A stretch of 57,860 nt of DNA from a virus (IMGVR_UViG_3300028920_002366:1-57860); one strand, 5' to 3'; positions 1-57,860 are shown, counted from the stretch's first letter. The notes: generated by a model not told the origin, from the letters alone. Program-made: numbers and translations.

Positions 1-185
1 TTAATCTCAATTGTTCTTTTTTTTGTTTAGATATTTTCTTCATAAGTAATTGGTTTAATTAAAAATAAGAAATAAGTGTTGAAAGTTTCGTAAAAAAGTG
101 TTACAATTATAATATAAGATAAAACACGCAAAAAAGGAGAAAAAAATGAAAACACTCGAACAAGAACTCAAAGAAATGCAAACAC
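1..185. repeat. Near-identical copy of 13237-13422 (HNH 5' end, promoter, RBS, first 13 codons of ORF 13383)
   Basis: Direct comparison shows 3 substitutions and 8 vs 9 T in the T-run. Confidence 0.95.
79..107 (+). promoter_or_regulatory. sigma70-type promoter
   Basis: TTGAAA-17 nt-TACAAT with TG extension; AAGGAG RBS precedes ATG 146. Confidence 0.7.
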
Positions 186-1444
186 TATATCGCACAGACG
201 GAACAACAATAGATAGCTCTAACAAGTTGTCACTCACAGAGTTAGTATTGAAGAACAAAGATAATCTTTCGGAAGCCAATCTCCGAAAAGCCAATATCAG
301 TTGCGTTGATCTCAGTAGCGTTGATCTTAGTTTCGCCGATCTACGGGAAGCCAATCTCCGAAAAGCCAATCTCCGAAAAGCCAATCTCAGTTACGCCAAT
401 CTCCGGGGAGCCGATTTCCGGGAAGCAAATCTCCGAAAAGCCAATCTCAATTACGCCAATCTCCGGGGAGCCGATTTCCGGGAAGCAAATCTCCGGGGAG
501 CCGATTTCCGGGAAGCAGATCTCAGTTTCGCCAATCTCCGGAAATTCGATCTCAGTTTCACAGATCTCAGTTACGCCAATCTCCGGGGAGCCGATCTACG
601 GGAAGCCAATCTCCGAAAAGCCAATCTCCGAAAAGCCAATCTCCGAAAAGCCAATCTCAGTTACGCCAATCTCCGGGGAGCTGATTTCCGGGAAGCAAAT
701 CTCCAGGGAGCCGATTTCCGGGAAGCCAATCTCAGTTTCGCCAATCTCCGGAAATTCGATCTCAGTTTCACAGATCTCAGTTTCGCCGATCTCCGGGAAG
801 CAGATCTCCAGAAAGCCGATCTCCGAGAAGCCAATCTTCGAAAAGCAAATCTCAGTTTAGCCGATCTCAGTTACGCCAATCTCCGGAAATCCAATCTCAG
901 TTTCGCTGATCTCCGGGAAGCCGATCTCCGGGAAGCAGATCTCCAGAAAGCCGATCTCCGAGAAGCCAATCTTCGAAAAGCAAATCTCAGTTTCGCCGAT
1001 CTCAGTTTCACAGATCTCAGTAGCGTTGATCTCAGTTTCGCCAATCTCAGTTTCGCTGATCTCCGGAAAGCCGATCTCAGGAAAGTCAATCTCCAGGGAG
1101 CCGATCTCCGAGAAGTCGATTTCCGCTGGTCGATAATCGATGATGCAGATCTCCGCAACGCGAAATATGACTACAAAACCCTGATGCTTCAAGTTAATTG
1201 GGGAGAACTTTCTGACAAACTCACACTTGAACTCATGCGCCAGGACACGCAGCTAATCGGTGAGGATCTGATAACAGCCTGGGCTAATGGCGGCGAATGT
1301 CCTTACGAAGTTTTGAATAGGGATCGAGATTACAAATTCAATGTAAAAAAACACCTCTGGAAACCAGGAAAGCCGAAGTACAGAAAAGATCAGATGTGGG
1401 ATCTTTTTGAGGCGCTTTGTAAGGAAAAAGGAGTGAAGATCTGA
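146..1444 (+). CDS. Pentapeptide repeat protein, copy A (chimeric N-terminus)
   Basis: A(D/N)Lxx repeats and the conserved C-cap (WGELSD..LELMRQD..WANGGECPY..LWKPGKP). The N-terminal MKTLEQELKEMQT is identical to ORF 13383. Confidence 0.9.
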   Translation: MKTLEQELKEMQTLYRTDGTTIDSSNKLSLTELVLKNKDNLSEANLRKANISCVDLSSVDLSFADLREANLRKANLRKANLSYANLRGADFREANLRKANLNYANLRGADFREANLRGADFREADLSFANLRKFDLSFTDLSYANLRGADLREANLRKANLRKANLRKANLSYANLRGADFREANLQGADFREANLSFANLRKFDLSFTDLSFADLREADLQKADLREANLRKANLSLADLSYANLRKSNLSFADLREADLREADLQKADLREANLRKANLSFADLSFTDLSSVDLSFANLSFADLRKADLRKVNLQGADLREVDFRWSIIDDADLRNAKYDYKTLMLQVNWGELSDKLTLELMRQDTQLIGEDLITAWANGGECPYEVLNRDRDYKFNVKKHLWKPGKPKYRKDQMWDLFEALCKEKGVKI

Positions 1445-1494
1445 TGTTAAGCAAAACAGCAAAAATTATTAACATTGTAACACAAAGGAGTTGA
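1444..1494 (+). other. Linker mini-ORF MLSKTAKIINIVTQRS, a truncated copy of the recT 5' end
   Basis: Matches the recT start (MSSKTEKII...IVTQ) with an internal deletion. Repeated at 57297-57347. Confidence 0.7.
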
Positions 1495-1496
1495 AA

Positions 1497-2180
1497 ATGC
1501 CAACACTATATCGCACAGACGGAATAATAATAAATAGATCTAACAAGTTGTAACTCACAGAGTTAGTAAGGAAGAACAAGGATAAACTTTTGGAAGCCGA
1601 TCTCAAAAAAGCTAATCTTTGGGGAGTTAATCTCCTGGGAGCCAATCTCCGAAAAGCCAATATCAGTTACGCCAATCTCAGATTCGCCGATCTCCGTTAC
1701 GCCAATCTCCAGGGATCCGATCTCAGTTTCGCCAATCTCCGAAAAGCCAATCTCAGTTTCGCCGATCTCAGTTACGCCAATCTCCAGAAAGCAGATCTCC
1801 AGAAAGCCAATCTCCGGGAAGCCAATCTCCGGGAAGCCGATCTCCGAGAAGCCGATCTAAACTGGACGATAATAGCAGGAACCGACCTTCGAGGAGCGAA
1901 ATACGACTACAAAACTCTCATGCTTCAAGTTGATTGGGGAGAACTTTCCGACGAACTCACACTCGAACTCATGCGCCAGGACACGCAGCTAATCGGTGAG
2001 GATCTGATAACAGCCTGGGCTAATGGCGGCGAATGTCCTTACGAAGTTTTGAATAGGGATCGAGATTACAAATTCAATGTAAAAAAACACCTCTGGAAAC
2101 CAGGAAAACCGAAGTACAGAAAAGATCAGATGTGGGATCTTTTTGAGGCGCTTTGTGAGGAGAAAGGGGTGGTGATATAA
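1497..2180 (+). pseudogene. Pentapeptide repeat protein, copy B, with in-frame TAA at 1551-1553
   Basis: RBS followed by ATG CCA ACA CTA TAT CGC as in the paralogs. The consensus TCA codon is TAA here; the frame stays open downstream (ORF 1590-2180). Confidence 0.8.
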
Positions 2181-2968
2181 TGTCAAGCAAAACAGAAAAA
2201 ATTATACAAGAGCTTGAAAATAATAGCATTGTAACACAAAATTCACAACTGTCTTTTGCCGATTATATTGAACAAAACAAAGACGAATTTGCAAAAGTTA
2301 TTCCTTCTAATATGAAACTTGACAAAATACTAAGGCTTGGTATAGCAGCTTACAAAAGGAAACCTCAATTAATGGCTTGTACTCAGGATTCTGTGGCTAT
2401 GGCTATTATGGAAGCTACATCACTAGGTCTTGAGATAGATACTCCAATGCACCAGTGTACTATAGTTCCAGTCAATGATTACAAAAACAAATGCAAATCA
2501 GCAGAGTTATGGATCGAATACGAAGGGTATGTAGCTCTTATGTATCGGCACCAGAAAGTAATATCTATATTTGCCAGTGAGGTATATATGGATGATGAGT
2601 TTGATTTTCAGTATGGGACTGATAGTTTTCTTAAGCACAAACCAAACGGAAATAGTATAAGTGAAAAAATATCCTTTTTTTACTGTTGTGTCAAGCTTGT
2701 AGGTGGTCATATTTTTAGGGTTATGACAAAAAAACAAGTTGATAATGTTCGTGATAGCTATTCAAAAGCTTATAACTATAATCAATCAGACAAGAATACT
2801 CCGTGGAATCAGGATTATATAGCTATGGGAAAAAAAACTGTAATAAGGGCAATAAATAAATTTGTACCGAAAACAACAGAAGTTTCAATGGCTTATGATA
2901 CTGATATTGCTTCAGTTTGGGTAAAAGGGGAAGAAAAACATAAAAATATTATTAAAGGAGAAAGTTAA
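2180..2968 (+). CDS. recT: RecT-family single-strand annealing recombinase
   Basis: PQLMACTQDSVAMAIMEATSLGLE, IEYEGYVAL, EVYMDDEF, PW..DY.AMGKKTVIR motifs. Confidence 0.9.
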   Translation: MSSKTEKIIQELENNSIVTQNSQLSFADYIEQNKDEFAKVIPSNMKLDKILRLGIAAYKRKPQLMACTQDSVAMAIMEATSLGLEIDTPMHQCTIVPVNDYKNKCKSAELWIEYEGYVALMYRHQKVISIFASEVYMDDEFDFQYGTDSFLKHKPNGNSISEKISFFYCCVKLVGGHIFRVMTKKQVDNVRDSYSKAYNYNQSDKNTPWNQDYIAMGKKTVIRAINKFVPKTTEVSMAYDTDIASVWVKGEEKHKNIIKGES

Positions 2969-3541
2969 ATGCAAATATTATATCGCACAAACGGAATAAT
3001 AATCGATAGCTCTAACGAACTGTCAATTAAGGAGTTAGTTATAAAAAACAAACATAACCTTTTGGATGCCGATCTCAAAAAAGCCGATCTTCGAGAAATC
3101 AATTTGCAAGGAGGCGATCTCCGGGAAGCCAATCTCAGTTTCGCTGATCTCCGGGAAGCCGATCTCTGGAACATAGATTTCCAGGATGCTAATCTCCGGG
3201 AGGCAGATCTCCGGAAAGCATTACTTGAGGATGTTAATTTTCAAGGTACAGATCTCCGAGAAGCAAATCTACAGGATGCTAATCTCAAAGGAACCTATCT
3301 CAAGGAAACAGACCTCAGAGGAGCAAAATACGATTACAAAAAACTCATGTTTCAAGTGGATTGGGATGAACTTTCCGAAGGCCTCACCCTCGAACTCATG
3401 CGCCAGGATGCTGATTTGAGTGGAAAACTAAGTTTTAGATATAAAAGATTATGGAAACCCGGAAAACCAAAATACGGAAAAGATCAGATGTGGGATCTTT
3501 TTAAGGCGCTTTGTGAGGAGAAGGGGGTGAAAATAAAATGA
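2969..3541 (+). CDS. Pentapeptide repeat protein, copy C (C-cap lacks the GGECPY segment)
   Basis: Same N-cap and repeats as the paralogs; the C-cap is shortened. Confidence 0.88.
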   Translation: MQILYRTNGIIIDSSNELSIKELVIKNKHNLLDADLKKADLREINLQGGDLREANLSFADLREADLWNIDFQDANLREADLRKALLEDVNFQGTDLREANLQDANLKGTYLKETDLRGAKYDYKKLMFQVDWDELSEGLTLELMRQDADLSGKLSFRYKRLWKPGKPKYGKDQMWDLFKALCEEKGVKIK

Positions 3542-4092
3542 TTAAAAAAAATAAAAACTATATGATTGATATAAAAGTACTTAATGATAGTGGTTATAAC
3601 GAAGCAATGTTAGGAATATCGCTAAACAAGAAAAAAAATATTGACACGGCAAAAAAAGTATCGTATAATTTGTATAACAAAGATTTTGGACATAATAAGT
3701 TTCTTGAGCATATGTACCTTTGGTTGTTGGTGAAAGCCCCAAGGTATTGGTGGCAAGAGGCTGATACTTATAGGTTGTCGTCAAAAAATAGCGAATCAAC
3801 AATGCACACTATTTTGAAAAGAAAACTAACTTTTGCAGATTTCGAACCTGATGGAGTTTCAGAAAGAAAACTAAAAGAACTTAATCAATATGTAAAAAAC
3901 AAAAATTTTTTAATTCTTAAAAAAAGATTAAATGAATCTTTTTTGCAGCAAAGAATGTGGGTAATAAGCTATAAAACTATGAGAAATATAATAATACAAA
4001 GATATAATCATAGGTTACCACACTGGAAAGATTTTTGTGACAAAATAGTAAATAATTGTAAAAATCCAAGCTATCTCAACATAAAACAATAA
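3538..4092 (+). CDS. Divergent ThyX-like protein
   Basis: HNKFL, APRYWWQEADTYR, NSESTMH and R.NHRLPHW..FC are typical of phage ThyX-like proteins. The canonical RHR motif is absent. Confidence 0.6.
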   Translation: MIKKNKNYMIDIKVLNDSGYNEAMLGISLNKKKNIDTAKKVSYNLYNKDFGHNKFLEHMYLWLLVKAPRYWWQEADTYRLSSKNSESTMHTILKRKLTFADFEPDGVSERKLKELNQYVKNKNFLILKKRLNESFLQQRMWVISYKTMRNIIIQRYNHRLPHWKDFCDKIVNNCKNPSYLNIKQ

Positions 4093-4101
4093 GGAGGAAT
4101 T

Positions 4102-4233
4102 ATGTATAGAATATTAATCGATAATAGGTATTATTTTGGAAATATTTTTTGGAAAGAAGAAGATGTTAAAAAAATATTTCCAAAATTACAAAATCTTGGA
4201 ATAAGTTTTTGTATTGAAAGGATAAATAAATGA
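4102..4233 (+). CDS. Small hypothetical protein (43 aa)
   Basis: AAGGAGG RBS; its stop overlaps the next start. Not in the ORF track. Confidence 0.5.
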   Translation: MYRILIDNRYYFGNIFWKEEDVKKIFPKLQNLGISFCIERINK

Positions 4234-4406
4234 TGGATAAAGAATTAGAAAAAAAAGAAGTTGATGGCTATAAAGAATTAGGCAAATCCTTTATAGATTT
4301 AGGCAATGTCCTTTTAAAGGAAGATTTCACGGTGGATGAACTAAGAAGAGCCGCATCAAACTGTAATATGTCTGTTAATTTAGTTTTAAGTTTCGCAAAA
4401 AAATAG
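4230..4406 (+). CDS. Small hypothetical protein (58 aa)
   Basis: ATGA overlap with the previous ORF; open frame MMDKELEKKE... Confidence 0.5.
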   Translation: MMDKELEKKEVDGYKELGKSFIDLGNVLLKEDFTVDELRRAASNCNMSVNLVLSFAKK

Positions 4407-4424
4407 TCTTTTCGCAAAAAAATA
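4391..4424. repeat. 15-bp direct repeat TTTCGCAAAAAAATA upstream of terS
   Basis: Copies at 4391-4405 and 4410-4424. Confidence 0.8.
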
Positions 4425-4439
4425 CTTATATTATAATAT

Positions 4440-4946
4440 ATGAAAAAAATAAATTACAACAAAGTCGAATGGTATTATAATATTGGTCTTTCCACTACAG
4501 AGGTTATTAAGCTTTTGGGTATTAGTCTTTGTGCTTTTCGGCAAAGAATTAGAAACAAATATAATGTATCAATTGAAGATTATATTAAAAGCATTAATAG
4601 CGATAAAAAAGATGGAAGACCTAAAATAGAGATTGACTATGATCAAGTTAAAAGATTATGCCAAATTTTTTGTACACAGGAAGAAATTTGCAATTTTTTT
4701 GGAATTTCAGTAGATACTATAGAGAGAAGGTTTCAGGAAAGATATGGCAAAACTTTCCAAGAAAAATACAAACAATTTTCTGTTGACGGAAAGATATCAC
4801 TAAGAAGAAAACAGTTCAAAAGATGCGAAGAGGGTAGTGATACTATGCTTGTATGGATGGGCAAAAATCACCTTGGACAAAAAGACAAAAATGAACAAGA
4901 AATACTTGATCATGAAATTAAAATAACATACGAAGAAGATAATTAA
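4440..4946 (+). CDS. terS: Terminase small subunit with two HTH-like segments
   Basis: GRPKIEID..CTQEEI..FFGISVDTI..R, SLRRKQF, MLVWMGKNHLGQKD; lies directly upstream of terL. Confidence 0.75.
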   Translation: MKKINYNKVEWYYNIGLSTTEVIKLLGISLCAFRQRIRNKYNVSIEDYIKSINSDKKDGRPKIEIDYDQVKRLCQIFCTQEEICNFFGISVDTIERRFQERYGKTFQEKYKQFSVDGKISLRRKQFKRCEEGSDTMLVWMGKNHLGQKDKNEQEILDHEIKITYEEDN

Positions 4947-4982
4947 TATACCTTCCTTTTTGAGTGTTTTTCGTATTATTGG

Positions 4983-5015
4983 AATAGCCTGTGTAATGCG
5001 GGCTATTTTTATTTT
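4983..5015 (+). terminator. Intrinsic terminator between terS and terL
   Basis: AATAGCCTGT-loop-GCGGGCTATT followed by a T-rich tract. Confidence 0.6.
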
Positions 5016-5081
5016 CGAAAGGTTACAAATGTGGCAAAAACAAATAAAAGAAGATTTTTATTTGTTTAAAAAAGAATTTCG

Positions 5082-6407
5082 GTGGATTACAAGATAAAAA
5101 TTAAAAGACTTCCTCACCAAAAAGAGTTTATGTCGTCAAAAGCTCTTACAAAAGCTCTTGTAACAGGCTATGGTGGAGGAAAAACATTTTGTATGGTTCA
5201 AGAGGGAATTAAGCACAGCTTCTTAGATCCAGGGATTCCTCACATGCTTGTGTCTCCAACGTATCCTATGGCTGAACAAACTATAATACCAACTATAATT
5301 GAAATATTAGAAGATTATTTTGAACCTTCTTTACAGGAGGGAAGGGATTATTTTTATAATCGCAGTAAACATAATTTTTACATCAAAAAATGGAATGGTA
5401 TAATCTGGGTAAGGAGTGCTGATAAACCTAGCTCGCTGAAAGGTCCAAACTTGGGGAGTTTTGGGATAGATGAACCTGGGCTTATCAAAGATAGTAATGT
5501 ATACAAAATAATGATATCCAGGAGAAGGCACCCAAGAGCAAAATATCCACAAGGATACCTATCAGGTACACCAGAAGGCCTAAATTGGTTTTTTGATCTC
5601 TGTGAAGGCGATAAAATACCTAAAGATTTTTGTCTTGTCAAAGGGAAAACAACAGATAATACACATTTGTCTATAGATTACATTAATGACCTATATGACC
5701 AATATGACGAGCAGTTGGTACAAGCGTATATAAATGGCGAGTTTGTCAACCTTGAGGGTGGTTCTGCTTATTATTCTTTTTCAAATAGTTTGTATCCAAA
5801 AGGTAATTTAATTGATGATTTTGAGATAAACCCTTCAAGACCTTTAGTTCTTGGTATGGATTTTAATTATAATCCAATGACACTTGTAATAGGCCAGGAG
5901 GTTATGGTTAACAAAGAGGTAAAATTTATTGTTTTTGACGAGTTGTTTCGAAAAAATTGTGACACAGATATGGCCATAGAACAAGTTTTGGAAAAATATG
6001 GGAAGTATAAGTTTAATGTCTATCCAGACATGAGTGCATATTCAGACAGTGCTCATGGAAGTGCTAAGTCTGATATAACACTTATAAAAAATACTTTCGA
6101 AAGATATAAAAAAAGACCAATAAACGATTATATAATTAAAGGCAAATCTGCAAACCCACCTCGGAAAGACCGCCTCAATTCTGTCAATACATTACTTAGA
6201 AATGCAAAAGGCGAAATAAAATTACTTATCCAGAAAAAATGTAAATTTTTGCTGGAAGACTTGAAAAAATGCCTAATGGAAGAGTATATTAATGGAAGAT
6301 ATGTTGATCCAGAAAGGGGTCATATTACTGATGCATTAGGATATGCTGTACACGCTAGATACCCAGTCAGAATAGACAGATATTACAATAATTTAATTAT
6401 TCATTAA
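5082..6407 (+). CDS. terL: Terminase large subunit
   Basis: Walker A GYGGGKT, Walker B FGIDEP, GTPEGLNW, nuclease LGMDFN and HITDALGY. Confidence 0.95.
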   Translation: MDYKIKIKRLPHQKEFMSSKALTKALVTGYGGGKTFCMVQEGIKHSFLDPGIPHMLVSPTYPMAEQTIIPTIIEILEDYFEPSLQEGRDYFYNRSKHNFYIKKWNGIIWVRSADKPSSLKGPNLGSFGIDEPGLIKDSNVYKIMISRRRHPRAKYPQGYLSGTPEGLNWFFDLCEGDKIPKDFCLVKGKTTDNTHLSIDYINDLYDQYDEQLVQAYINGEFVNLEGGSAYYSFSNSLYPKGNLIDDFEINPSRPLVLGMDFNYNPMTLVIGQEVMVNKEVKFIVFDELFRKNCDTDMAIEQVLEKYGKYKFNVYPDMSAYSDSAHGSAKSDITLIKNTFERYKKRPINDYIIKGKSANPPRKDRLNSVNTLLRNAKGEIKLLIQKKCKFLLEDLKKCLMEEYINGRYVDPERGHITDALGYAVHARYPVRIDRYYNNLIIH

Positions 6408-6418
6408 AAGGATCTATT

Positions 6419-7882: not shown

Positions 7883-7883
7883 C

Positions 7884-7912: not shown

Positions 7913-7918
7913 TAAGTA

Positions 7919-9036: not shown

Positions 9037-9915
9037 ATGCCGACACTATATCGCACAGACGGAACAATAATCGATAGCTCTAACAAGTTGTCGCTCACAG
9101 AGTTAGTAAGGAATAACAAAGATAAACTTTCGGAAGGTGATCTCCGGAAGGCCGATCTCCGTGGAGTCTATATCCGGAAGGCCAATCTCAGTTTCGCCGA
9201 TCTCCGGGAATCCGATCTCCGGGAATCCGATCTCCGGGAATCCGATCTCCAGGGAGCCGATTTCCGGAAAGTCGATTTCAGAAAAGCCAATCTCAGTTTC
9301 GCCGATCTCCGGGAAGTTAATTTCAGTTTCGCCAATCTCAGTTTCGCCGATCTCCAGAAAGCCGATCTCCTGGAATCCGATCTCCGGGAATCCGATCTCC
9401 AGGGAGCCGATTTCCGGAAAGTCGATTTCAGAAAAGCCGATCTCCGTTACGCCAATCTCCGGGAAGCCTATATCAGAAAAGCCAATCTCAGTTTCGCCAA
9501 TCTCCGGGAAGCCAATCTCAGTTTCGCAGATCTCAGTTTCGCCGATCTCCGAAAAGCCGATCTCCGAAAAGCCGATCTCCGAAAAGCAAATCTCCGCTGG
9601 TCTATAATCGACGAGGCAGACCTCCGCAACGCAAAATACGACTATGAGACAGTAATGCTTCAAGTTAATTGGGAAAAACTCTCCGACGAACTCACCTTAG
9701 AACTCATGCGCCAGGACGCGCAGCTTATCGGAGAAGAAATGATAACCAATTGGTCTAATGGCGGCGAATGTCCTTATGTATTTTTGGTAAGAAAACGAGA
9801 TTTCATATTCAAAGAAAGAAAGAAGCTCTGGAAAACCGGAAAACCAAAATACGGAAAAGATCAGACACGTGAGCTGTTTGAAGCTCTTTGTGAGGAGAAA
9901 GGGGTGAAGGTCTGA
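9037..9915 (+). CDS. Pentapeptide repeat protein, copy D
   Basis: Conserved caps and repeats. Confidence 0.9.
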   Translation: MPTLYRTDGTIIDSSNKLSLTELVRNNKDKLSEGDLRKADLRGVYIRKANLSFADLRESDLRESDLRESDLQGADFRKVDFRKANLSFADLREVNFSFANLSFADLQKADLLESDLRESDLQGADFRKVDFRKADLRYANLREAYIRKANLSFANLREANLSFADLSFADLRKADLRKADLRKANLRWSIIDEADLRNAKYDYETVMLQVNWEKLSDELTLELMRQDAQLIGEEMITNWSNGGECPYVFLVRKRDFIFKERKKLWKTGKPKYGKDQTRELFEALCEEKGVKV

Positions 9916-10936: not shown

Positions 10937-11003
10937 GGGTTTCTTGTGGTAATATTACTAATGTTTGTTTATTTTACAAAGACAAAGACGAGGAGGAATA
11001 AAT

Positions 11004-12002
11004 ATGACAGTTGACCCAATTATGGCGAATTATATACATGGATCAAGCAAAAAAGAAAACATAAACAACTGGCTAGAAACCAGAAAAAAAGGTATAGGTG
11101 GTAGTGATATAGCATCTATTGCGGGCCTAAACCCATGGAGAAATTCAACAGACGTATACCTTGACAAATTGGGTCTTATAAAAACAGAGGCTAATGAACA
11201 AATGAAAATTGGTCTAGTCCTTGAAGATCCTATAGCAATTATATATTCTGGGCAAAAAAAAGTGTTGCTTGAAGAAATTGATTATGTATTACAACACGAT
11301 GAATATGAATTTTGTCTTGCTAATATAGATCGATTAATAAAAAAAACAATAATTGATGATATAGATAATGACACAACAGAAGCTTTGAAAAAATATGGGG
11401 AAGGTATCTTAGAGATTAAAAATACCAGAAGAGGCGAAGATTGGGTAGATGGAAAAGTGCCGAATTATTATATGTGCCAACTACAGTGGTATCTCGGCAT
11501 AACTGGGCTTCAATGGGGGCAATTCGCTGTGTTGATCAATGGTAGCAATTTTGTCACTTCTGAAATTATTATGTTTGATGAAAATTTGTTTCAGAAACTT
11601 GTTGAAATTGCTAATAATTTTTGGTATAATCATGTTAAGAAAAATATTCCACCATCACAAAATTTGGATATTAATCAGTTGTCAAAAATATACAAAACGA
11701 AAGATAATACAATAGTATTAGAAAACAATAAAACTGTTAATGAGATTTTAGATGAGAGAGAAAAAATATTGACCACTATCAATAAGTTAGAAAAAAGGAA
11801 AAAAGAAATAGATACAGAAATATATAACAATATTAAGGAAAACAAAAGTGGTTGTACTGACAAGTGGAGTATAACGAAAATAACAAGAAATAGTGTTAAT
11901 TTAGACTATAAAAGACTAAAAGAAGAACATTATGATATCTACCAAAAATTTAGCAAAAAAAGCGAATCAGTATATTTTATATATAAAAAAATAGGAGATT
12001 AA
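11004..12002 (+). CDS. yqaJ: YqaJ / lambda-exonuclease family recombination nuclease
   Basis: WLETRKKGIGGSD..I.GLNPW, ANIDR, LEIK, VPNYY.CQLQWY. AGGAGG RBS before ATG 11004. Confidence 0.92.
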   Translation: MTVDPIMANYIHGSSKKENINNWLETRKKGIGGSDIASIAGLNPWRNSTDVYLDKLGLIKTEANEQMKIGLVLEDPIAIIYSGQKKVLLEEIDYVLQHDEYEFCLANIDRLIKKTIIDDIDNDTTEALKKYGEGILEIKNTRRGEDWVDGKVPNYYMCQLQWYLGITGLQWGQFAVLINGSNFVTSEIIMFDENLFQKLVEIANNFWYNHVKKNIPPSQNLDINQLSKIYKTKDNTIVLENNKTVNEILDEREKILTTINKLEKRKKEIDTEIYNNIKENKSGCTDKWSITKITRNSVNLDYKRLKEEHYDIYQKFSKKSESVYFIYKKIGD

Positions 12003-12003
12003 A

Positions 12004-12897
12004 ATGCCAACACTATATCGCGCAGACGGAACAACAATAGATAGCTCTAACAAGTTGTCACTCACAGAGTTAGTAAGGAAGAACAAGGATAAACTTTCGG
12101 AAGCCGATCTCAGGAAAGTCAATCTCCAGGGAGCCGATCTAAGTTTCGCCAATCTTAGTTTTGCTGATCTCCGGAAAGCCAATCTACAGGGAGTCGATCT
12201 CCAGAGAGCCGATTTCAGAAAAGCCAATCTCAGTTACGCAAATCTCCGGGAAGCCGATCTCCGAAAAGCCAATCTCCAGGGAGCCGATTTCCGGGAAGTA
12301 GATCCCAGTTTCGCCAATCTCCGAAAAGCCGATCTCCGAAAAGCCAATCTCAGTTACGCAAATCTCCGGGAAGCCAATATCAGTTGCGTTGATCTCAGTA
12401 GCGTTGATCTTAGTTATGCCAATCTCAGTTTCGCCAATCTCCGGAAATCCGATCTCAGTTTCGCCAATCTCAGTTTCGCCGATCTCCAGAAAGCCAATCT
12501 CCAGGGGTCCGATCTCAGTTTCGCCAATCTCCGGAAAGCCAATCTCAGTTTCGCCGATCTCCAGGAAGTAGATTTTCGCGGGTCGATAATCGATGATGCA
12601 GATCTCCGCAACGCGAAATATGACTACAAAACCCTAATGCTTCAAGTGAATTGGGAAAAACTTTCCGACGAACTCACACTCGAACTCATGCGCCAGGACG
12701 CGCAATTAATTGGAGAAGACATGATAACAGCCTGGGCTAATGGCGGCGAATGTCCTTACGAAGTTCTGTACAGAGATCGAGATTTCAAATTCAATGTAAA
12801 AAAACACCTCTGGAAAACCGGAAAACCGAAATACGGGGAAAATCAAATGAGACAACTTTTTGATGCGCTTTGTGAGGAGAAGGGTGTGAAAATATAA
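12004..12897 (+). CDS. Pentapeptide repeat protein, copy E
   Basis: Conserved caps and repeats. Confidence 0.9.
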   Translation: MPTLYRADGTTIDSSNKLSLTELVRKNKDKLSEADLRKVNLQGADLSFANLSFADLRKANLQGVDLQRADFRKANLSYANLREADLRKANLQGADFREVDPSFANLRKADLRKANLSYANLREANISCVDLSSVDLSYANLSFANLRKSDLSFANLSFADLQKANLQGSDLSFANLRKANLSFADLQEVDFRGSIIDDADLRNAKYDYKTLMLQVNWEKLSDELTLELMRQDAQLIGEDMITAWANGGECPYEVLYRDRDFKFNVKKHLWKTGKPKYGENQMRQLFDALCEEKGVKI

Positions 12898-13280
12898 TGG
12901 AAAGAGTTGAGATAATATCTGATTAATGCTAAATCATCATTTCTAAGTTTTGAGGTTACTTGATACATTTTTTTCATATCAAAATAATTAAGATTTTTTG
13001 ACTTTAAATAATCATCTCGTGTTTTGATATATTCGTCAACATCTGATTTAATCCGAAACATATGACACTTATAACACAATGTCATTCCATTTTCAATAAG
13101 AAACCAAGAATGTTTGTTGTTTTTTGTAATACCCCTAGATACAATATGGTGAGCTTGAAGACGGTCAGTAGCACCACACCATACACAATAAGGAGTGTTT
13201 TTTCTAATAATTTTTGACCATAATCCAAGTAATTTATTGATCTCAATTGTTCTTTTTTTTTGTTTAGATATTTTCTTCAT
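12843..13280 (-). CDS. HNH endonuclease (NinG-like)
   Basis: CVWCG..LQAHHI...NGMTLCYKCH. It is the only credible minus-strand gene. Confidence 0.8.
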   Translation of the reverse strand: MKKISKQKKRTIEINKLLGLWSKIIRKNTPYCVWCGATDRLQAHHIVSRGITKNNKHSWFLIENGMTLCYKCHMFRIKSDVDEYIKTRDDYLKSKNLNYFDMKKMYQVTSKLRNDDLALIRYYLNSFHYIFTPFSSQSASKSCLI

Positions 13281-17848: not shown

Positions 17849-18577
17849 ATGCCAACACTATATCGCACAGACGGAGCAACAATAGATAGCTCTAACAAGT
17901 TATCACTCAAAGAGTTAGTAATGAAGAATAAAGATAAACTTACGGAAGTCGATCTCCGGAAGACCAATCTTCGGGGAGTCGATCTCAGTTTCGTCAATCT
18001 CAGTTTTGCTGATCTCCAGGGAGCAGATCTCCGTTTCGCTAATCTCCGAGAAGCCAATCTCCGGAAAGCCGATCTCCTGGGAGCCAATCTCCGAAAAGCC
18101 AATCTCAGTTACGCCAATCTCCGGGGAGCCGATTTCCGGGAAGCAAATCTCAAATCAACCAACCTCAAATCGGTCAACCTTTTCGGGGCAGATTGCAGTT
18201 TTGCTAATGCCCAAAAAACTAACCTTCGAGACATTGATTTGCGAGGAGTTGATTTGTGTCTGTTAAAAATAGCAGAGGCAGACCTCCGCAACGCAAAATA
18301 CGATTACAAAACCCTAATGCTTCAAGTGGATTGGGAAAAACTCTCCGATGAACTCACCTTAGAACTCATGCGCCAGGACGCGCAATTAATCGGAGAAGAA
18401 CTGATAACCGATTGGTCTAATGGCGGCGAATGTCCTTATGTAGTTTTAGATAAGTATCGAGACTTCAAATTCAAAGAAAAAATGAAACTCTGGAAACCCG
18501 GAAAACCAAAATACGGAAAAGATCAGATGCGGGATCTTTTTAAGGCTCTTTGTGAGGAGAAAGGGGTGAAGATCTGA
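17849..18577 (+). CDS. Pentapeptide repeat protein, copy F
   Basis: Conserved caps and repeats. Confidence 0.9.
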   Translation: MPTLYRTDGATIDSSNKLSLKELVMKNKDKLTEVDLRKTNLRGVDLSFVNLSFADLQGADLRFANLREANLRKADLLGANLRKANLSYANLRGADFREANLKSTNLKSVNLFGADCSFANAQKTNLRDIDLRGVDLCLLKIAEADLRNAKYDYKTLMLQVDWEKLSDELTLELMRQDAQLIGEELITDWSNGGECPYVVLDKYRDFKFKEKMKLWKPGKPKYGKDQMRDLFKALCEEKGVKI

Positions 18578-49417: not shown

Positions 49418-49420
49418 ATT

Positions 49421-53445: not shown

Positions 53446-54009
53446 ATGCGAATCACAAAAAAATGGCTTATAGAAAAATATGCTTGCGAACCAGGATTAT
53501 TATGGTTTTGTAACCAGTCTGAGATAAATCCCATAAAAATAATCAAAAAGCTTATGTTAGAGGATCGTTATGAATGGGGTAGCTGGTTGATTACAAACAT
53601 TCTTACAAAGAAAGATAATATCTTATACGCGATATTCGCAGCGGAAAAAGTACTCCATATTTTCGAAGAAAAATATCCAAACGACAAAAGACCAAGGAAA
53701 GCTATCGAAGTAGCTAAAAAATATTTAAGTAATTTTTACGCATCTGCTGCTGCTGATGCTGCTGCTGCTGCTGCTGTTGATGCTTCTGATGCTGCTTATA
53801 TTGATGATGCTACGGCAGCTGCTGATGCTGCGGCAGCTGCTTATTCTACTGCTGCTGCGGTTACTTCTGACTATATTACTTCTTCTGTTTATGCTGATTC
53901 TGCTTATGCTGATTCTGCTTCTGCGGCAGCTTATAATAATAATTCAGACTATTATTTAGAAAAAAAAATAATAAATTATGGGATCGATTTACTTAAAAAA
54001 CAAGAGTAA
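53446..54009 (+). CDS. Imm5-like phage protein with Ala-rich tract
   Basis: AC..G..WF, AE.VL.IFE.KYPNDKRPRKAIE.A, then GCT-rich repeats. Confidence 0.7.
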   Translation: MRITKKWLIEKYACEPGLLWFCNQSEINPIKIIKKLMLEDRYEWGSWLITNILTKKDNILYAIFAAEKVLHIFEEKYPNDKRPRKAIEVAKKYLSNFYASAAADAAAAAAVDASDAAYIDDATAAADAAAAAYSTAAAVTSDYITSSVYADSAYADSASAAAYNNNSDYYLEKKIINYGIDLLKKQE

Positions 54010-54011: not shown

Positions 54012-55256
54012 ATGGATATAAATTACCTAAAAAGTAGAATAATGTCTGAGGTAAGTATTGTTTCTGTCGTAGAAAAATATACAAAGATTAAGAAAACAGG
54101 AAACCAATATATAGGTCTTTGCCCATTTCATAACGAAAAAACACCATCATTTTTTGTTAACCCTGAGAAAAATTTATTTAATTGTTTTGGATGTCATATG
54201 GGTGGGGATTTATACAAATTTGTTATGGAAATGGAAAAATTATCATTTATGGATACGGTGATAAAAATATCCCAGGATTATGGAATTATGGAAAATAATA
54301 ACCAAAATCAAAGTAAGTATAATGAATACTATTCAGCACTAAAACTAATTTCTGATTCTTATTATAACGAATTAAAAAAAAATAAAATTGCTATAAACTT
54401 TTTAAAGCAACGAAAAATTAAACCAGAAATAGTAAAAGAACTTAAAATTAGTTACGCTCCAAGCGCGATAAATTACTCAACACAAGTGCTAAAGCAAAAT
54501 ACAGATCTCATGAATAAGGTAGGGATAGTAAAAATTACCGACAATGAAATGAAAGATAGATTTAATAATAGGATAATGTTTCCAATCTTTAGCAGTAATA
54601 ATATTGTAGGTTTTTCTGGCAGGGCTGTTAGTGATAGCTTACCAAAATATCTTAATTCACCTGATACTGATATTTACAAAAAGTCAGAGGTTTTGTATGG
54701 CCTAAATTTTGCTAAAAGATATATCAAAGAGAAAGGTTGTGTAATAATTGTTGAGGGTAATTTTGACTTTGTTAAGCTTTACCAAAATGGAATAAAAAAT
54801 GTAGTAGCACTACTATGTACTAACTTTACTGACTACCAAATTAATTTACTAAAAAAAATAACCAATAATTTTATTCTTTGCCTTGATAATGATAATGCTG
54901 GTAGGAACTCAACAAAAAAAATAATTTACAATATATACGAAAAATATGACGAAATTAAAATAAATATAGTGTCACTAAAAGATACAAAAGACCCTGATAG
55001 TTTTATTGACGAATATGGCTGCGAAAAATTTTTAGTTGAGATAAAAAATAGTACTATGGGGATAAATTATTTAATTTACAATTCAAAGTTTAAGGTTGAG
55101 TTACAAAATATTATTAAAAGTATTTATAAAAAATATACTTCAAATCTAAAAACAGAAAAAGATGAAAAAAAAATAAAACAAAAAACTTGTTTTTTGAAGA
55201 AAAAAATCGTACAATTAATTAAAGTAACCGAAGAAATTATGGGAGAAACAAAATAA
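54012..55256 (+). CDS. dnaG: DnaG-type DNA primase
   Basis: CPFHNEKTPSF..CFGC zinc finger, RIMFPI, KYLNSP, TOPRIM VEG.FD, D.D.AG and KDPD. Confidence 0.95.
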   Translation: MDINYLKSRIMSEVSIVSVVEKYTKIKKTGNQYIGLCPFHNEKTPSFFVNPEKNLFNCFGCHMGGDLYKFVMEMEKLSFMDTVIKISQDYGIMENNNQNQSKYNEYYSALKLISDSYYNELKKNKIAINFLKQRKIKPEIVKELKISYAPSAINYSTQVLKQNTDLMNKVGIVKITDNEMKDRFNNRIMFPIFSSNNIVGFSGRAVSDSLPKYLNSPDTDIYKKSEVLYGLNFAKRYIKEKGCVIIVEGNFDFVKLYQNGIKNVVALLCTNFTDYQINLLKKITNNFILCLDNDNAGRNSTKKIIYNIYEKYDEIKINIVSLKDTKDPDSFIDEYGCEKFLVEIKNSTMGINYLIYNSKFKVELQNIIKSIYKKYTSNLKTEKDEKKIKQKTCFLKKKIVQLIKVTEEIMGETK

Positions 55257-55981: not shown

Positions 55982-56313
55982 TGACAAAAAATTTTTTTAA
56001 AAACCGAATTAAAAAGCTTGAAAAAGAGCTTCAACTCTCTGCAAATACAGAGTTTTACACCGATGTTTTGTTTGAAAAATTTAAAAATTCTGATGATAAA
56101 AATTTTAACAAAACTTGCGATATTTTAGCATCAACTTACGAAAATAAATTCAAATTTCCTGGGTTAAGTGATTTTATAAAAGTTTATAAATCAATAATTT
56201 ACCCGCCAAAAAATCTTAATTTAAGAAAAAAAAAACTAACAAACAGGGAAGTTGAGCAGGTTGGAAATATAGCCTCTGAATTAGCAAAAAAATTTTCAAA
56301 GAAAGGATCCTAA
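55981..56313 (+). CDS. Probable helicase loader/inhibitor-like protein
   Basis: Follows the initiator gene; KFP..SD motif. Confidence 0.45.
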   Translation: MTKNFFKNRIKKLEKELQLSANTEFYTDVLFEKFKNSDDKNFNKTCDILASTYENKFKFPGLSDFIKVYKSIIYPPKNLNLRKKKLTNREVEQVGNIASELAKKFSKKGS

Positions 56314-57297
56314 ATGTCTACACTATACCGCACAGACGGAACAATGATAGATAGTTCTAACAAGTTACCACTCGAAAAATTAGCAAATAAGAACAAAGAT
56401 AAGCTTTTTGGTGCCAATCTCAGTTATAAAATTCTACGTTTCGCTAATCTCCAAAAAGCTAATCTCAAAAAAGCTAATCTACAAAAAGCTAATCTAAGTT
56501 TCACCAATCTTAGTTTTGCTGATCTCCGGGAAGCCAATCTCCAAAAAGCCAATCTAAGTTGCGCCAATCTAAGTTACGCCAATCTTAGTTTTGCTGATCT
56601 CCGGAAAGCCAATCTACAGGGAGTCGATCTCCAGAGAGCCGATTTCAGAAAAGCCAATCTCCGGAAAGCAGATGTTAAGGAAGCCAATCTCAATTACGCC
56701 AATCTCCGGGGAGCCGATCTCCGGGAAGCAAATCTCCGGGGAGCCGATCTCCGGGAAGCAGATCTTCGAGAAGCCAATCTCAGTTTCGCCGATCTACGTT
56801 TCGCCGATCTACGAGAAGCCAATCTCAGTTTCGCCGATCTCAGTTTCGCCAATCTCAGTTTCGCTAATCTCAGTTTCACCGATCTCCAGAAAGCAGATCT
56901 CCAGAAAGCCGATCTCCAGAAAGCCGATCTCAGGAAAGTCAATCTCCAGAAAGCCGATCTCCGAGAAGTCGATTTCCGCTGGTCGATAATCGATGATGCA
57001 GACCTCCGCAACGCAAAATACGACTATGAGACAGTAATGCTTCAAGTTGATTGGGGAGAACTTTCCGACAAACTCACCCTCGAACTCATGCGCCAGGACG
57101 CGCAATTAATTGGAGAAGACATGATAACAGCCTGGGCTAATGGCGGCGAATGTCCTTACGAAGTTCTGTACAGAGATCGAGACTTCAAATTCAATGTTAA
57201 AAAACACCTCTGGAAACCCGGAAAACCAAAATACGGAAAAGATCAAATGAGAGAGCTGTTTGAGGCGCTTTGTAAGGAAAAAGGAGTGAAGATCTGA
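56314..57297 (+). CDS. Pentapeptide repeat protein, copy G
   Basis: Conserved caps and repeats. Confidence 0.9.
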   Translation: MSTLYRTDGTMIDSSNKLPLEKLANKNKDKLFGANLSYKILRFANLQKANLKKANLQKANLSFTNLSFADLREANLQKANLSCANLSYANLSFADLRKANLQGVDLQRADFRKANLRKADVKEANLNYANLRGADLREANLRGADLREADLREANLSFADLRFADLREANLSFADLSFANLSFANLSFTDLQKADLQKADLQKADLRKVNLQKADLREVDFRWSIIDDADLRNAKYDYETVMLQVDWGELSDKLTLELMRQDAQLIGEDMITAWANGGECPYEVLYRDRDFKFNVKKHLWKPGKPKYGKDQMRELFEALCKEKGVKI

Positions 57298-57347
57298 TGT
57301 TAAGCAAAACAGAAAAAATTATTAACATTGTAACACAAAGGAGTTGA
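57297..57347 (+). other. Linker mini-ORF MLSKTEKIINIVTQRS (recT-start remnant)
   Basis: One mismatch to 1444-1494. Confidence 0.7.
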
Positions 57348-57349
57348 AA

Positions 57350-57860
57350 ATGCCAACACTATATAGCACAGACGGAACAATGATAGATAGTTCTAACGAA
57401 TTGTCGCTCACAGAGTTAGTACGGAAGAACAAGAAGAAACTTTTGGAAGCTGATCTCCGAGTAGCAGATCTCCGAAAAATCAATTTGCAAAAAGCCGATT
57501 TCAGTTACACTGATCTCCGGGAAGCTGATCTCCGGGAAGCTGATCTCCGGGAAGCTGATCTCCGGGAAGCTGATCTCAGTTACGCTGATCTCCGAGAAGC
57601 AAATCTCAGTTACGCTGATCTCCGTGAAGCTGATCTCTGTTACGCTGATCTCCGGAAAGCAGTACTTGAGGATATTAATTTTCAAGGTACAGATCTCCGA
57701 AAAGCCAATCTTCGAAAAGCAAATCTCCGAAAAGCCAATCTTAGTTTTGCTGATCTCCGGAAAGCCAATCTACAGGGAGTCGATCTCCAGAGAGCCGATT
57801 TCAGAAAAGCCAATCTCCGGAAAGCAGATGTTAAGGAAGCCAATCTCAATTACGCCAATC
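57350..57860 (+). CDS. Pentapeptide repeat protein, copy H (runs off the window end)
   Basis: RBS followed by MPTLYSTDGTMIDSSNELSLTELV; open to the end of the window. Not in the ORF track. Confidence 0.85.
   Translation, partial: MPTLYSTDGTMIDSSNELSLTELVRKNKKKLLEADLRVADLRKINLQKADFSYTDLREADLREADLREADLREADLSYADLREANLSYADLREADLCYADLRKAVLEDINFQGTDLRKANLRKANLRKANLSFADLRKANLQGVDLQRADFRKANLRKADVKEANLNYAN

What the first reader, a model, noticed from the sequence alone, without database searches (positions are those of the whole stretch)
146..57860. Eight-copy pentapeptide-repeat cassette family: candidate RT-free diversification system in a phage
Seen: eight co-oriented paralogs start at 146, 1497, 2969, 9037, 12004, 17849, 56314 and 57350, totalling about 6.5 kb (~11% of the window). 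Each has a conserved ~30-aa N-cap (MPTLYRTDG..IDSSNKLSL.ELV) and, where visible, a conserved ~90-aa C-cap. Between them is a core of 15-nt modules GC(C/A/T)(A/G)ATCTC plus a hexamer from a small vocabulary (CGAAAA RK, CGGGAA RE, AGTTTC SF, AGTTAC SY, CAGAAA QK, CAGGGA QG, CGGGGA RG). Module number and order differ in every copy (190-432 aa). Known: pentapeptide repeats fold as quadrilateral beta-helices, and some (MfpA, Qnr) mimic DNA; the variable residues include outward-facing positions. Inference: the phage maintains a recombining library of rods with different lengths and surfaces, possibly decoys or inhibitors of host or defence proteins.
Basis: partly seen in the sequence, partly recalled or inferred. 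Interest (0 to 1): 0.88.

Follow-up and report, generated by a model that had tools for sequence, protein, structure and literature searches.

The report
Eight-copy pentapeptide-repeat gene family in phage
An uncultivated marine-sediment phage carries at least eight copies of a rod-shaped repeat protein that ends in a previously undescribed domain; the copies have swapped pieces during evolution, but nothing shows a purpose-built diversity generator.

Summary
Eight co-oriented pentapeptide-repeat (PRP) genes lie at the stated coordinates, 6,552 bp or 11.3% of a 57.9-kb IMG/VR tailed-phage contig. They share an N-cap and a ~95-aa C-cap and carry 17 to 59 repeat modules each.

New here:
- The C-cap defines an undescribed family: 366 cluster representatives, no Pfam or PHROG model, no PDB or BFVD fold match. 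It was found in 28 viral contigs, 4 MAG contigs, 2 metagenome contigs and no GenBank phage.
- Elsewhere the gene is usually single: 31 of 34 other records. Three records have 2-3 copies.
- The seven complete C-caps of this phage form one clade (100/100), so the expansion happened in this lineage.
- C-caps are under purifying selection (dN/dS 0.06-0.31, dS up to 0.9) but are mosaic, which indicates gene conversion between copies.
- Two tandem pairs are separated by a remnant of the recT 5' end. RecT-like, RecE-like and HNH genes abut copies.

- Seven copies are complete ORFs with ribosome-binding sites (an eighth is cut by the contig end), not silent cassettes.
- No population-level variation could be tested.
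- The proteins are not acidic, so DNA mimicry is unsupported.

Best reading: a lineage-specific multigene family evolving by concerted evolution. Its role is probably host interaction, but that is inferred.

The parts
146..1444 (+). c1: PRP paralog, 432 aa, 59 modules, the longest. It has a 10-aa N-terminal extension before the N-cap motif at 176. A promoter-like site lies at 79-107 and an AGGAG ribosome-binding site precedes the start.
1445..1496 (+). 52-nt spacer between c1 and c2. It differs at one base from the c7-c8 spacer. It consists of the first ~26 nt of recT plus a later recT segment, i.e. a deleted recT 5' end.
1497..2180 (+). c2: PRP paralog with an in-frame TAA at 1551-1553 (codon 19), 20 modules. 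A TTG at 1590 would give 196 aa without the N-cap. Its C-cap shares a 143-nt identical tract with c1.
2180..2968 (+). RecT-like single-strand annealing protein. Its start overlaps the c2 stop and its stop abuts the c3 start.
   Evidence: phrog_148, E 9.7e-53
2969..3541 (+). c3: the most divergent paralog, 190 aa, 17 modules. Its C-cap lacks 23 residues.
9037..9915 (+). c4: PRP paralog, 292 aa, 33 modules. The 12 nt upstream (AAAGGATCCTAA) are shared with c7.
10965..12002 (+). RecE-like recombination exonuclease, ending 1 nt before c5.
   Evidence: phrog_434, E 6e-74
12004..12897 (+). c5: PRP paralog, 297 aa, 34 modules. The ~18 nt upstream are shared with c6. It shares 104-nt and 85-nt identical tracts with c7.
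12843..13280 (-). HNH endonuclease ORF, convergent with c5 and overlapping its 3' end by 55 nt.
   Evidence: PF01844, E 9.9e-6
17849..18577 (+). c6: PRP paralog, 242 aa, 23 modules. This copy was modelled: N-cap and beta-helix have pLDDT above 90.
56314..57297 (+). c7: PRP paralog, 327 aa, 40 modules. Its C-cap is mosaic: c4-like, then c5-like, then c1-like.
57298..57349 (+). Spacer between c7 and c8, the second copy of the recT 5' remnant.
57350..57860 (+). c8: PRP paralog cut by the contig end, with at least 27 modules. Its last 126 nt are identical to c7 at 56578-56703.

Best explanation
The eight genes are a lineage-specific expansion of a phage accessory-protein family that has not been described. 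Each protein is a beta-solenoid rod, here a pentapeptide-repeat quadrilateral helix with a beta-hairpin/helix N-cap. It ends in a conserved ~95-aa helical C-terminal domain.

Shown:
- One ancestral gene was duplicated within this phage lineage.
- The caps are kept by purifying selection.
- The paralogs have exchanged tracts (gene conversion).
- The arrays consist of near-identical 15-nt modules whose number and order differ in every copy.

Inferred:
- The founder copy probably sat upstream of recT, because two tandem pairs carry a recT 5' remnant between them.
- Array turnover comes from slippage and unequal or ectopic homologous recombination, promoted by the phage's own RecT/RecE-like pair and possibly the adjacent HNH nuclease. 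It is a by-product of repeat-rich DNA rather than a dedicated mechanism.
- The proteins are stand-alone early or accessory host-interaction factors (host takeover or counter-defence). The conserved C-cap would supply a common activity or docking site, and the rod a variable length and surface, so that several paralogs cover several targets.
For: Family and fold:
- PF00805 hits in all seven proteins scanned.
- The AF2 model of c6 has pLDDT above 90 over the N-cap and helix, and Foldseek returns only PRP structures.
- A C-cap profile finds 366 cluster representatives at E<=1e-3, 91 of them at E<=1e-10. All those inspected are 64-290-aa solenoid + C-cap proteins.
- The C-cap models at pLDDT 96.2 and pTM 0.87. 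It has no match at E<=0.001 in PDB or BFVD apart from the PRP coils, no PDB sequence match and no Pfam or PHROG family.

Viral distribution:
- 28 IMG/VR loci against 4 MAG contigs. The nearest Atlas clusters are 75-96% viral.

In-lineage expansion:
- The seven own C-caps form one clade with 100/100 support among 66 sequences.
- The c1-c2 and c7-c8 spacers are a deleted recT 5' end.
- Upstream ribosome-binding-site segments are shared in pairs: c4/c7, c5/c6, c2/c8.

Maintenance:
- C-cap dN/dS is 0.06-0.31 in all 15 pairs, with dS 0.19-0.90.

Exchange and concerted evolution:
- Mosaic C-caps, with 527 of 1,225 incompatible site pairs and p=0.002.
- Identical tracts of 143, 126, 104 and 85 nt between different partners.
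- Core codons are homogeneous and rare for this genome: GCC 67% vs 8%, CTC 80% vs 6%, CGG+CGA 77% vs 11%.
- Modules encoding the same pentapeptide differ by 0.94 nt within a copy and 1.08 nt between copies.

Recombination genes beside copies:
- RecT, RecE-like and HNH.

Array instability across the family:
- 17 of 23 relatives have internal exact repeats of 40 nt or more.
- L044 and L046 are 98-98.6% identical in their flanks but have 20 and 13 modules.
- Phages L and ST64T, more than 99.9% identical, differ by a 15-bp deletion of one pentapeptide repeat in an early-left-operon gene (10.1101/2020.10.05.325894, passage read).

Accessory or early context:
- Neighbours in relatives match helicase, topoisomerase II, exonucleases, Gp2.5-like SSB, HNH and anti-repressors.
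- No neighbour recurs across independent loci.
Against: - Function is inferred from context only. There is no expression data, no partner and no hit to PADLOC.
- The rod surfaces show no face periodicity, so a defined binding face is not evident.
- Mosaic tracts could partly be assembler switches between paralogs at shared k-mers. The 143-nt c1/c2 tract is not bridged by any listed Logan contig.
- The PHI-like statistic is home-made.
- N-cap dN/dS is noisy, 0.17 to 2.6 over 33 codons.
- RecT and RecE homologues of this phage were found near the gene in none of 32 related loci, so the link to recombination genes is local, not family-wide.
- Raised GC in the array also occurs in 13 of 23 relatives and is unexplained.
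- The contig is about 76% complete, so copy number and the arrangement around the contig ends are unknown.
Confidence: 0.6

Rival explanations
1. Programmed, RT-free diversification. The phage population continuously reshuffles modules among the copies at high frequency, generating a library of rods as decoys for host or defence proteins.
For: - Module order and number differ in every copy.
- Multi-module blocks are shared between copies and C-caps are mosaic.
- The phage encodes RecT and RecE-like proteins and an HNH nuclease next to copies.
- No RT is present.
- A published precedent exists for nuclease-driven amplification of anti-defence loci in phage T6 (PMC13096335, abstract only).
Against: - There is no donor/expression-site architecture. 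Seven copies are complete ORFs with ribosome-binding sites.
- C-cap dS of 0.19-0.90 indicates old, individually maintained genes.
- No population data exist. One DNA run is available, as contigs only, and none spans an array.
- Recombination between co-oriented dispersed copies would delete essential genes such as terminase and portal (inference).
- Array-length change in single-copy relatives shows that ordinary repeat instability suffices.
Confidence: 0.1
2. Qnr/MfpA-like DNA mimics that bind host gyrase, topoisomerase or other DNA-handling enzymes such as restriction enzymes or RecBCD. The proteins would act like Gam or Ocr beside the phage recombination genes.
For: - The fold is the same as MfpA, Qnr and AlbG.
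- Copies flank recT and the recE-like gene.
- One relative lies beside phage topoisomerase II genes.
- PRPs of this class dimerise through C-terminal helices and act on gyrase (PMC10886550, passages read).
Against: - Net charge per copy is -3 to +6 and pI 5.4-9.0.
- Solenoid net charge across the family has a median of 0: 57 negative, 30 zero and 61 positive of 148.
- Identity to MfpA and Qnr chains in the Foldseek alignments is 12-24%, through the repeat only.
- The C-cap is unrelated to known PRP termini.
- McbG and QnrB did not block BREX, so mimicry alone is not a general anti-defence activity (PMC7261183, passage read).
Confidence: 0.15
3. Assembly artefact. A smaller number of real genes was multiplied or scrambled by short-read assembly of 15-nt periodic repeats.
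For: - The contig ends inside c8, directly after a 126-nt repeat.
- Arrays are not spanned by any listed Logan contig.
- Only one sample holds the sequence.
Against: - Each copy has unique flanks and diverged caps. C-cap DNA identity is 76-91%.
- Logan contigs made by another assembler join unique flanks to caps with no mismatches: 2127-3158, 3461-9226, 9751-12015 and 13393-17860. The run may be the source sample, so this is not independent data.
Confidence: 0.05
4. Structural or virion-associated rods, such as fibres or decoration proteins, or selfish moron-like cassettes that spread to gene boundaries without benefit to the phage.
For: - Copies start within 0-10 nt of the upstream gene's stop and carry their own ribosome-binding site.
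- HNH genes lie near copies here and in L067.
- Solenoids are common in phage fibres (general knowledge).
Against: - Purifying selection acts on the C-caps of all paralogs.
- In relatives the gene sits among DNA-metabolism and small early genes. None of the 25 listed neighbour families is structural.
- The proteins contain no nuclease or transposase domain.
Confidence: 0.1

Closest known systems
Pentapeptide-repeat proteins Qnr, MfpA, AlbG and McbG (topoisomerase-protecting PRPs)
   Same: Right-handed quadrilateral beta-helix built of A(D/N)LXX repeats. Small cytoplasmic proteins with a helical C-terminus.
   Different: - These proteins are not acidic.
- They have a different, larger C-terminal domain with no fold or sequence match.
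- They are phage-borne and multi-copy.
- Gyrase interaction is untested.
PRP gene orf232 in the early-left operon of P22-like phages L and ST64T
   Same: A phage-encoded PRP in an early or recombination-gene region, with a one-module (15-bp) indel between near-identical phages (10.1101/2020.10.05.325894, passage read).
   Different: That gene is single-copy. Three C-cap queries found no match in 50,697 GenBank phage records, so it does not carry this C-cap at the sensitivity of tblastn.
Viral PRPs with a C-terminal DUF5758 domain (PF19062)
   Same: A phage PRP plus a conserved C-terminal domain. It forms a large viral cluster of 1,134 members.
   Different: TM-score to this C-cap is only 0.30. 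There was no PF19062 hit in the window's proteins or in any of the 150 family members scanned.
Cassette-based variation systems (Neisseria pilE/pilS, Borrelia vlsE) and diversity-generating retroelements
   Same: Repeated, partly identical segments exchange by gene conversion.
   Different: There is no single expression site, no silent cassettes and no RT. Features of these systems are recalled from general knowledge, not from a call.
Gene amplification of counter-defence loci (phage T6 SegB-driven amplification; poxvirus gene accordions)
   Same: Copy-number expansion of an accessory gene in a virus. A homing-type nuclease gene lies beside one copy (PMC13096335, abstract only).
   Different: The copies here are old and diverged, with dS up to 0.9. 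They are dispersed over the genome rather than forming recent identical tandem amplicons. The poxvirus case is recalled, not read.

Membership tests
Pentapeptide repeat proteins (Pfam PF00805 / Rfr fold) | Tandem A(D/N)LXX pentapeptides scoring above the Pfam threshold | tested here: met
   All seven proteins scanned score 92.8-469.1 bits against a cut-off of 20.2. A single 15-nt register is kept throughout.
Pentapeptide repeat proteins (Pfam PF00805 / Rfr fold) | Right-handed quadrilateral beta-helix | tested here: met
   In the AF2 model of c6, residues 1-110 have pLDDT 85-97. Foldseek returns 57 PDB matches at E<=0.001; all those listed are PRPs or PRP-based designs, or contain a PRP domain (NleL). 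This is a prediction, not a solved structure.
Qnr/MfpA-type DNA-mimic topoisomerase protectors | Strongly electronegative, DNA-like surface | tested here: not met
   Net charge is -3 to +6 and pI 5.4-9.0 for the eight copies. The family median solenoid charge is 0. Only charge was tested, not surface maps.
Qnr/MfpA-type DNA-mimic topoisomerase protectors | Tail-to-tail homodimer through the C-terminal helix | tested here: inconclusive
   The homodimer prediction gave no verdict.
Qnr/MfpA-type DNA-mimic topoisomerase protectors | Binding to, or protection of, DNA gyrase or topoisomerase IV | not testable with these tools
   Needs biochemistry.
Cassette-type programmed variation (expression site plus silent donors) or DGR | One expressed locus plus promoterless partial donor cassettes | tested here: not met
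   Six copies are complete ORFs with ATG and an SD-like GGA(G) 7-9 nt upstream; c3 is open but lacks 23 C-cap residues and c8 is cut by the contig end. Only c2 is interrupted.
Cassette-type programmed variation (expression site plus silent donors) or DGR | Dedicated diversifying enzyme (reverse transcriptase or site-specific invertase) | tested here: not met
   There is no PF00078 match in the window. No invertase or integrase appeared among the 29 non-PRP ORFs scanned against PHROGs. Not every ORF was scanned, and about 24% of the genome is missing.
Cassette-type programmed variation (expression site plus silent donors) or DGR | Hypervariation within one population | not testable with these tools
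   Only one DNA run is available, kept as contigs that do not span the arrays.
Solenoid + C-cap phage family (defined here) | C-terminal ~95-aa domain with the motif W..LS..LTLELMR.DA ... GG.CP[YF] ... RDF.F ... LWKPGKPK ... LF.ALCKEK.I | tested here: met
   Six copies carry the full domain, c3 a shortened one, and c8 is truncated. The profile finds 366 representatives. Invariant or near-invariant columns are listed.
DUF5758-type viral PRPs (PF19062) | PF19062 domain at the C-terminus | tested here: not met
   No PF19062 hit at E<=0.01 in the 7 own proteins or in the 150 family members. Structural TM-score is 0.30.

The most novel reading that the evidence does not exclude
The phage uses its own RecT/RecE-like recombination pair, perhaps primed by the HNH nuclease next to c5, to keep shuffling 15-nt modules among at least eight expressed solenoid genes. 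A phage population would then carry a standing library of rods of different length and surface, all attached to one conserved, structurally novel C-terminal effector or docking domain. This would be a recombination-based counterpart of DGRs for counter-defence or host takeover.
Probability: 0.12. Interest if true: 0.85.

Novelty: new variant of a known kind. Interest (0 to 1): 0.55.

Why it matters
Phage-encoded pentapeptide-repeat proteins are common, but none has an assigned function.

This work adds three things:
- It defines a large, virus-restricted subfamily by a confidently modelled C-terminal domain that has no known fold. That domain is a concrete target for structural and functional study.
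- It shows that the repeat arrays of this subfamily change length quickly between near-identical phages.
- It documents the most extreme case seen here, a phage spending 11% of its genome on at least eight selectively maintained, recombining paralogs.

Holding that many copies under purifying selection in a compact genome implies a strong benefit, most plausibly in phage-host conflict. If the paralogs have distinct targets, they would form a natural panel for discovering new host or defence targets.

Tried and rejected
- Near relatives of this phage. There was no megablast match to 50,697 GenBank phages. The major head protein reaches only 25-27% identity and TerL relatives only 24-29%. The RecE-like protein gave nothing in JGI metagenomes. 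The C-cap patterns of this phage gave nothing in IMG/VR and only 42-43% relatives in metagenomes. Orthologous copies in sister genomes could therefore not be compared.\n- Word-based protein search with the c6 C-cap found only the window's own proteins.\n- Sequencing runs. One DNA holder is listed, and no RNA holder. Laying its contigs showed flank-to-cap junctions, but no contig spans an array. The 'joints' between copies are explained by c7/c8 sequence laid on c1/c5/c6. This gives no test of population variation or expression.\n- Homodimer prediction of the last coils plus C-cap gave no verdict.\n- C-cap fold searches in PDB and BFVD, the sequence search of PDB, and the Pfam, PHROG and PADLOC scans named nothing.\n- A RecT/RecE association across the family was rejected. 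There were no homologues in 32 related loci at E<1e-5, and no neighbour recurs across independent loci.\n- Face periodicity of module types along the four faces of the helix was not seen.\n- Foreign origin inferred from GC and codon bias was weakened, because raised GC in the array also occurs in 13 of 23 relatives.\n- GATC enrichment (18.7 per kb in the copies, 2.2 per kb elsewhere) follows from GAT-CTC coding for Asp-Leu.\n- tRNA scan found none.\n- Promoter and terminator scan was uninformative apart from the site upstream of c1.\n- Literature. Searches found no paper on a multi-copy PRP family in a phage or on this C-terminal domain. 'DUF5758' returned 0 papers.

Full report
**What the window is.** The 57,860-bp window is a whole IMG/VR virus record. 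It is linear and CheckV estimates it at 76% complete. It encodes:
- small and large terminase subunits (4440-4946, 5082-6407) and a portal protein (6419-7882);
- a major head protein (35605-36537) and a minor tail protein (42134-43231);
- a RecT-like annealing protein (2180-2968) and a RecE-like exonuclease (10965-12002);
- methyltransferases and a DnaG-type primase.

Nearly all long ORFs are on the + strand. GC is about 0.32 outside the repeat genes. No close relative exists in GenBank phages, and the major head protein reaches only 25-27% identity. The only public run holding the sequence is a marine-sediment metagenome.

**The observation.** They total 6,552 bp, 11.3% of the window. All seven proteins scanned are strong PF00805 matches.

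Each gene has three parts:
- a 33-aa N-cap (M-P-T-LYRTDG..IDSSNKLSL.ELV.KNKDKL);
- an uninterrupted array of 15-nt modules, numbering 59, 20, 17, 33, 34, 23, 40 and >=27;
- a ~95-aa C-cap, except in truncated c8.

The exact 15-nt pattern fits 86 of 253 modules, and all 86 lie inside the genes.

- c1 carries a 10-aa leader, so its ORF starts at 146 and its N-cap motif at 176.
- c2 has an in-frame TAA at codon 19.
- c3 lacks 23 residues of the C-cap.
- c8 ends with the contig, immediately after a 126-nt tract identical to c7. That is where a k-mer assembler would be expected to stop.

**Is the arrangement real?** Each copy has unique flanks, and the caps are diverged, with 76-91% C-cap DNA identity. 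Contigs of the one public run, built by a different assembler, join unique flanks to caps without a mismatch: 2127-3158, 3461-9226, 9751-12015 and 13393-17860. That run may be the source sample, so it is not independent data. No listed contig spans an array. Copy number is therefore credible, but the module order inside arrays is unverified.

**What the proteins are.** The AF2 model of c6 gives a beta-hairpin/helix N-cap and a regular quadrilateral helix with pLDDT above 90. Foldseek returns only PRP structures.

The C-cap is the informative part.
- *Family size.* A profile of the seven C-caps finds 366 cluster representatives at E<=1e-3 among 1.84 billion proteins, 91 of them at E<=1e-10. Two of the 366 are the window's own.
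- *Architecture.* Those inspected are 64-290-aa proteins with a repeat region followed by the same domain.
- *Names.* The ten looked up are metagenomic, and none carries an informative name.
- *Pfam content.* Of the 150 members of alignment A5 (two window sequences plus 148 relatives), 130 carry PF00805 and 3 match Hexapep. No Pfam family covers the C-terminal domain.
- *Other repeat types.* Four viral or MAG members have a six-residue CSFGxx-type repeat instead of pentapeptides. Only one gives a Hexapep score, and it is below threshold.
- *Structure.* With 150 rows the last coils plus C-cap model at pLDDT 96.2 and pTM 0.87, as a compact mainly helical domain.
- *Fold.* It has no match at E<=0.001 in PDB or BFVD beyond the PRP coils and no PDB sequence relative.
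- *Nearest Atlas clusters.* They are unnamed viral PRP clusters. The DUF5758-type viral PRPs reach only TM 0.30.

**Distribution and copy number elsewhere.** The family profile found 28 IMG/VR loci and 4 MAG contigs. The narrower profile of this phage's own C-caps found 2 metagenome loci. Three C-cap queries found nothing in 50,697 GenBank phage records.
- Whole-record searches of the 28 viral records show one C-cap gene in 27 and two in one, G025.
- In the six further loci, where only the fetched stretch was examined, L063 has three copies within 6.9 kb and L067 has two copies inside a segmental duplication.

Multi-copy states therefore recur in 3 of 34 other records, but eight copies is by far the largest number seen. 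At 432 aa, c1 exceeds every one of the 150 best hits, whose maximum is 290 aa.

**How the family arose and evolves here.**
- *Single origin.* The seven own C-caps form a single clade, 100/100, on a long stem among 66 sequences. One of the 60 best relatives was dropped for C-part length. This indicates one acquisition followed by duplication in this lineage.
- *Where the founder sat.* The 52-nt spacers c1-c2 and c7-c8 differ at one base. They consist of the first ~26 nt of recT plus a later recT segment. The duplicated unit was therefore PRP plus the start of recT, which points to the copy upstream of recT as the founder. This step is inferred.
- *Spread of the duplicated unit.* Upstream segments containing the ribosome-binding site are shared in pairs: c4/c7, c5/c6 and c2/c8.
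- *Age and selection.* C-cap dN/dS is 0.06-0.31 in all 15 pairs, and dS is 0.19-0.90. The paralogs are old and individually maintained.
- *Exchange between copies.* The C-caps are mosaic. c7 is closest to c4, then c5, then c1; c1 is closest to c5, then c2. Of 1,225 informative site pairs, 527 fail the four-gamete test, and incompatibility is clustered (p=0.002, home-made PHI-like permutation). Identical tracts of 143, 126, 104 and 85 nt link different partners.
- *Concerted evolution in the arrays.* The arrays use codons that are rare in this genome: GCC 67% vs 8%, CTC 80% vs 6%, CGG+CGA 77% vs 11%. Modules encoding the same pentapeptide are as alike between copies (1.08 nt different) as within copies (0.94).

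Together these results show concerted evolution, meaning slippage, unequal exchange and gene conversion. The phage's RecT-like and RecE-like proteins abut c2/c3 and c5. An HNH endonuclease ORF overlaps the 3' end of c5 on the other strand. That these enzymes drive the exchange is inference.

Array instability is a property of the whole family:
- 17 of 23 relatives have internal exact repeats of at least 40 nt.
- L044 and L046 are 98-98.6% identical in their flanks but have 20 and 13 modules.
- Two other near-identical groups with short arrays are unchanged.
- A published example is the 15-bp loss of one pentapeptide repeat between phages L and ST64T (10.1101/2020.10.05.325894, passage read).

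**What it is not, on present evidence.**
- *Not a cassette system.* Seven copies are complete, translatable ORFs (an eighth is cut by the contig end). No RT was found. No invertase appeared among the 29 non-PRP ORFs scanned against PHROGs.
- *Population variation is untested.* It could not be examined with the available data.
- *DNA mimicry is not supported by charge.* The copies have net charge -3 to +6 and pI 5.4-9.0. Across 148 relatives the solenoid charge has a median of 0. Module types show no periodicity along the four faces.
- *Not a known defence component.* PADLOC gives no hit.
- *No conserved partner gene.* None recurs across independent loci. Neighbours in relatives are DNA-metabolism and anti-repressor-type genes and many small ORFs. 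RecT and RecE homologues of this phage are absent from 32 related loci.

**Most likely mechanism.** The most likely reading is a stand-alone accessory protein in which the conserved C-cap supplies a common activity or docking site. The solenoid supplies a rod of rapidly evolving length and surface. In this lineage the gene has expanded into a panel of paralogs, most plausibly for interaction with host factors or defences. The evolutionary part is shown; the functional part is inferred from context and selection.

**Caveats.**
- Only one sample and one short-read assembly support the sequence.
- Some mosaic tracts could be assembler switches. The 143-nt c1/c2 tract is not bridged by any listed contig.
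- N-cap dN/dS is noisy.
- Raised GC in the arrays is unexplained and also occurs in 13 of 23 relatives.
- About 24% of the genome is missing.

**Novelty.** Four literature searches found no description of a multi-copy PRP family in a phage or of this C-terminal domain. 'DUF5758' returned no paper. Supplements were not consulted. I rate this a new variant of a known kind: phage PRPs are known, while this subfamily, its domain and the eight-fold expansion are not.

Noticed in passing
window 53446-54009 (+): A 187-aa ORF matches Imm5 / Imm5-like polymorphic-toxin immunity proteins (PF21805, E 4.9e-10). This is an unusual accessory gene for a phage. It sits just upstream of the primase.
   Followed up: no
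window 54012-55256 (+): A DnaG-type primase with zinc ribbon, catalytic core and Toprim domains. It also hits PADLOC RT_UG29 and RTasDnaG-like models. The RT_UG29 match covers positions 6-408 of a 2,280-position profile, which I read as its primase-like N-terminal part, so it is not an RT.
   Followed up: partly
window 12843-13280 (-): An HNH endonuclease ORF, one of few minus-strand ORFs with a domain hit (most minus-strand ORFs were not scanned). It overlaps the 3' end of PRP copy c5 by 55 nt. HNH-like ORFs also lie near the two PRP copies of L067, judged from their translations only.
   Followed up: partly
window 4440-7882 and 35605-36537: Terminase and portal genes lie about 28 kb from the major head protein gene, with many unannotated ORFs between them. 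This is an unusual layout for a tailed phage. Large ORFs of 791, 672, 591 and 1,308 aa (38753-53347) have no informative PHROG hit.
   Followed up: no
L063 1-6869 (contig titled as an Omnitrophica MAG): Three C-cap-bearing PRP genes or fragments lie within 6.9 kb, at about 1107-1355, 2186-2764 and 5965-6867. They sit beside a YdcK-type beta-solenoid repeat protein (23-625; PF18836, E 2.3e-32). This is a second solenoid-rich multi-copy locus.
   Followed up: partly
L067 4633-5283 and 13214-13891: Two co-oriented PRP + C-cap paralogs have near-identical N-caps but different arrays. Similar-looking 162- and 167-aa ORFs lie upstream of each copy (judged from their translations; not aligned), which suggests a segmental duplication in a GC-rich metagenome contig.
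   Followed up: partly
L057 4485-5132, L060 9680-10261, L061 9848-10267, L066 1594-2127: The same C-cap is fused to a six-residue CSFGxx-type repeat and a different N-terminus (FTQEEFD...CP.G.Y) instead of pentapeptide repeats. The domain therefore combines with more than one repeat type. Pfam Hexapep is below threshold in one of the four and absent in the other three.
   Followed up: partly
window, PRP arrays; relatives L040-L066: The arrays are much more GC-rich than their genomes: 0.46-0.53 against 0.32 here. The excess is at least 0.08 in 13 of 23 relatives. They also use codons that are rare in the host phage. The cause is unexplained.
   Followed up: partly
window 3538-4092 (+): A 184-aa ORF directly after c3, overlapping its stop by 4 nt. 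It matches phrog_6721 (unknown function, E 1.6e-22) and gives a weak PADLOC hit to a CRISPR-associated 2OG model (E 6.4e-4).
   Followed up: no
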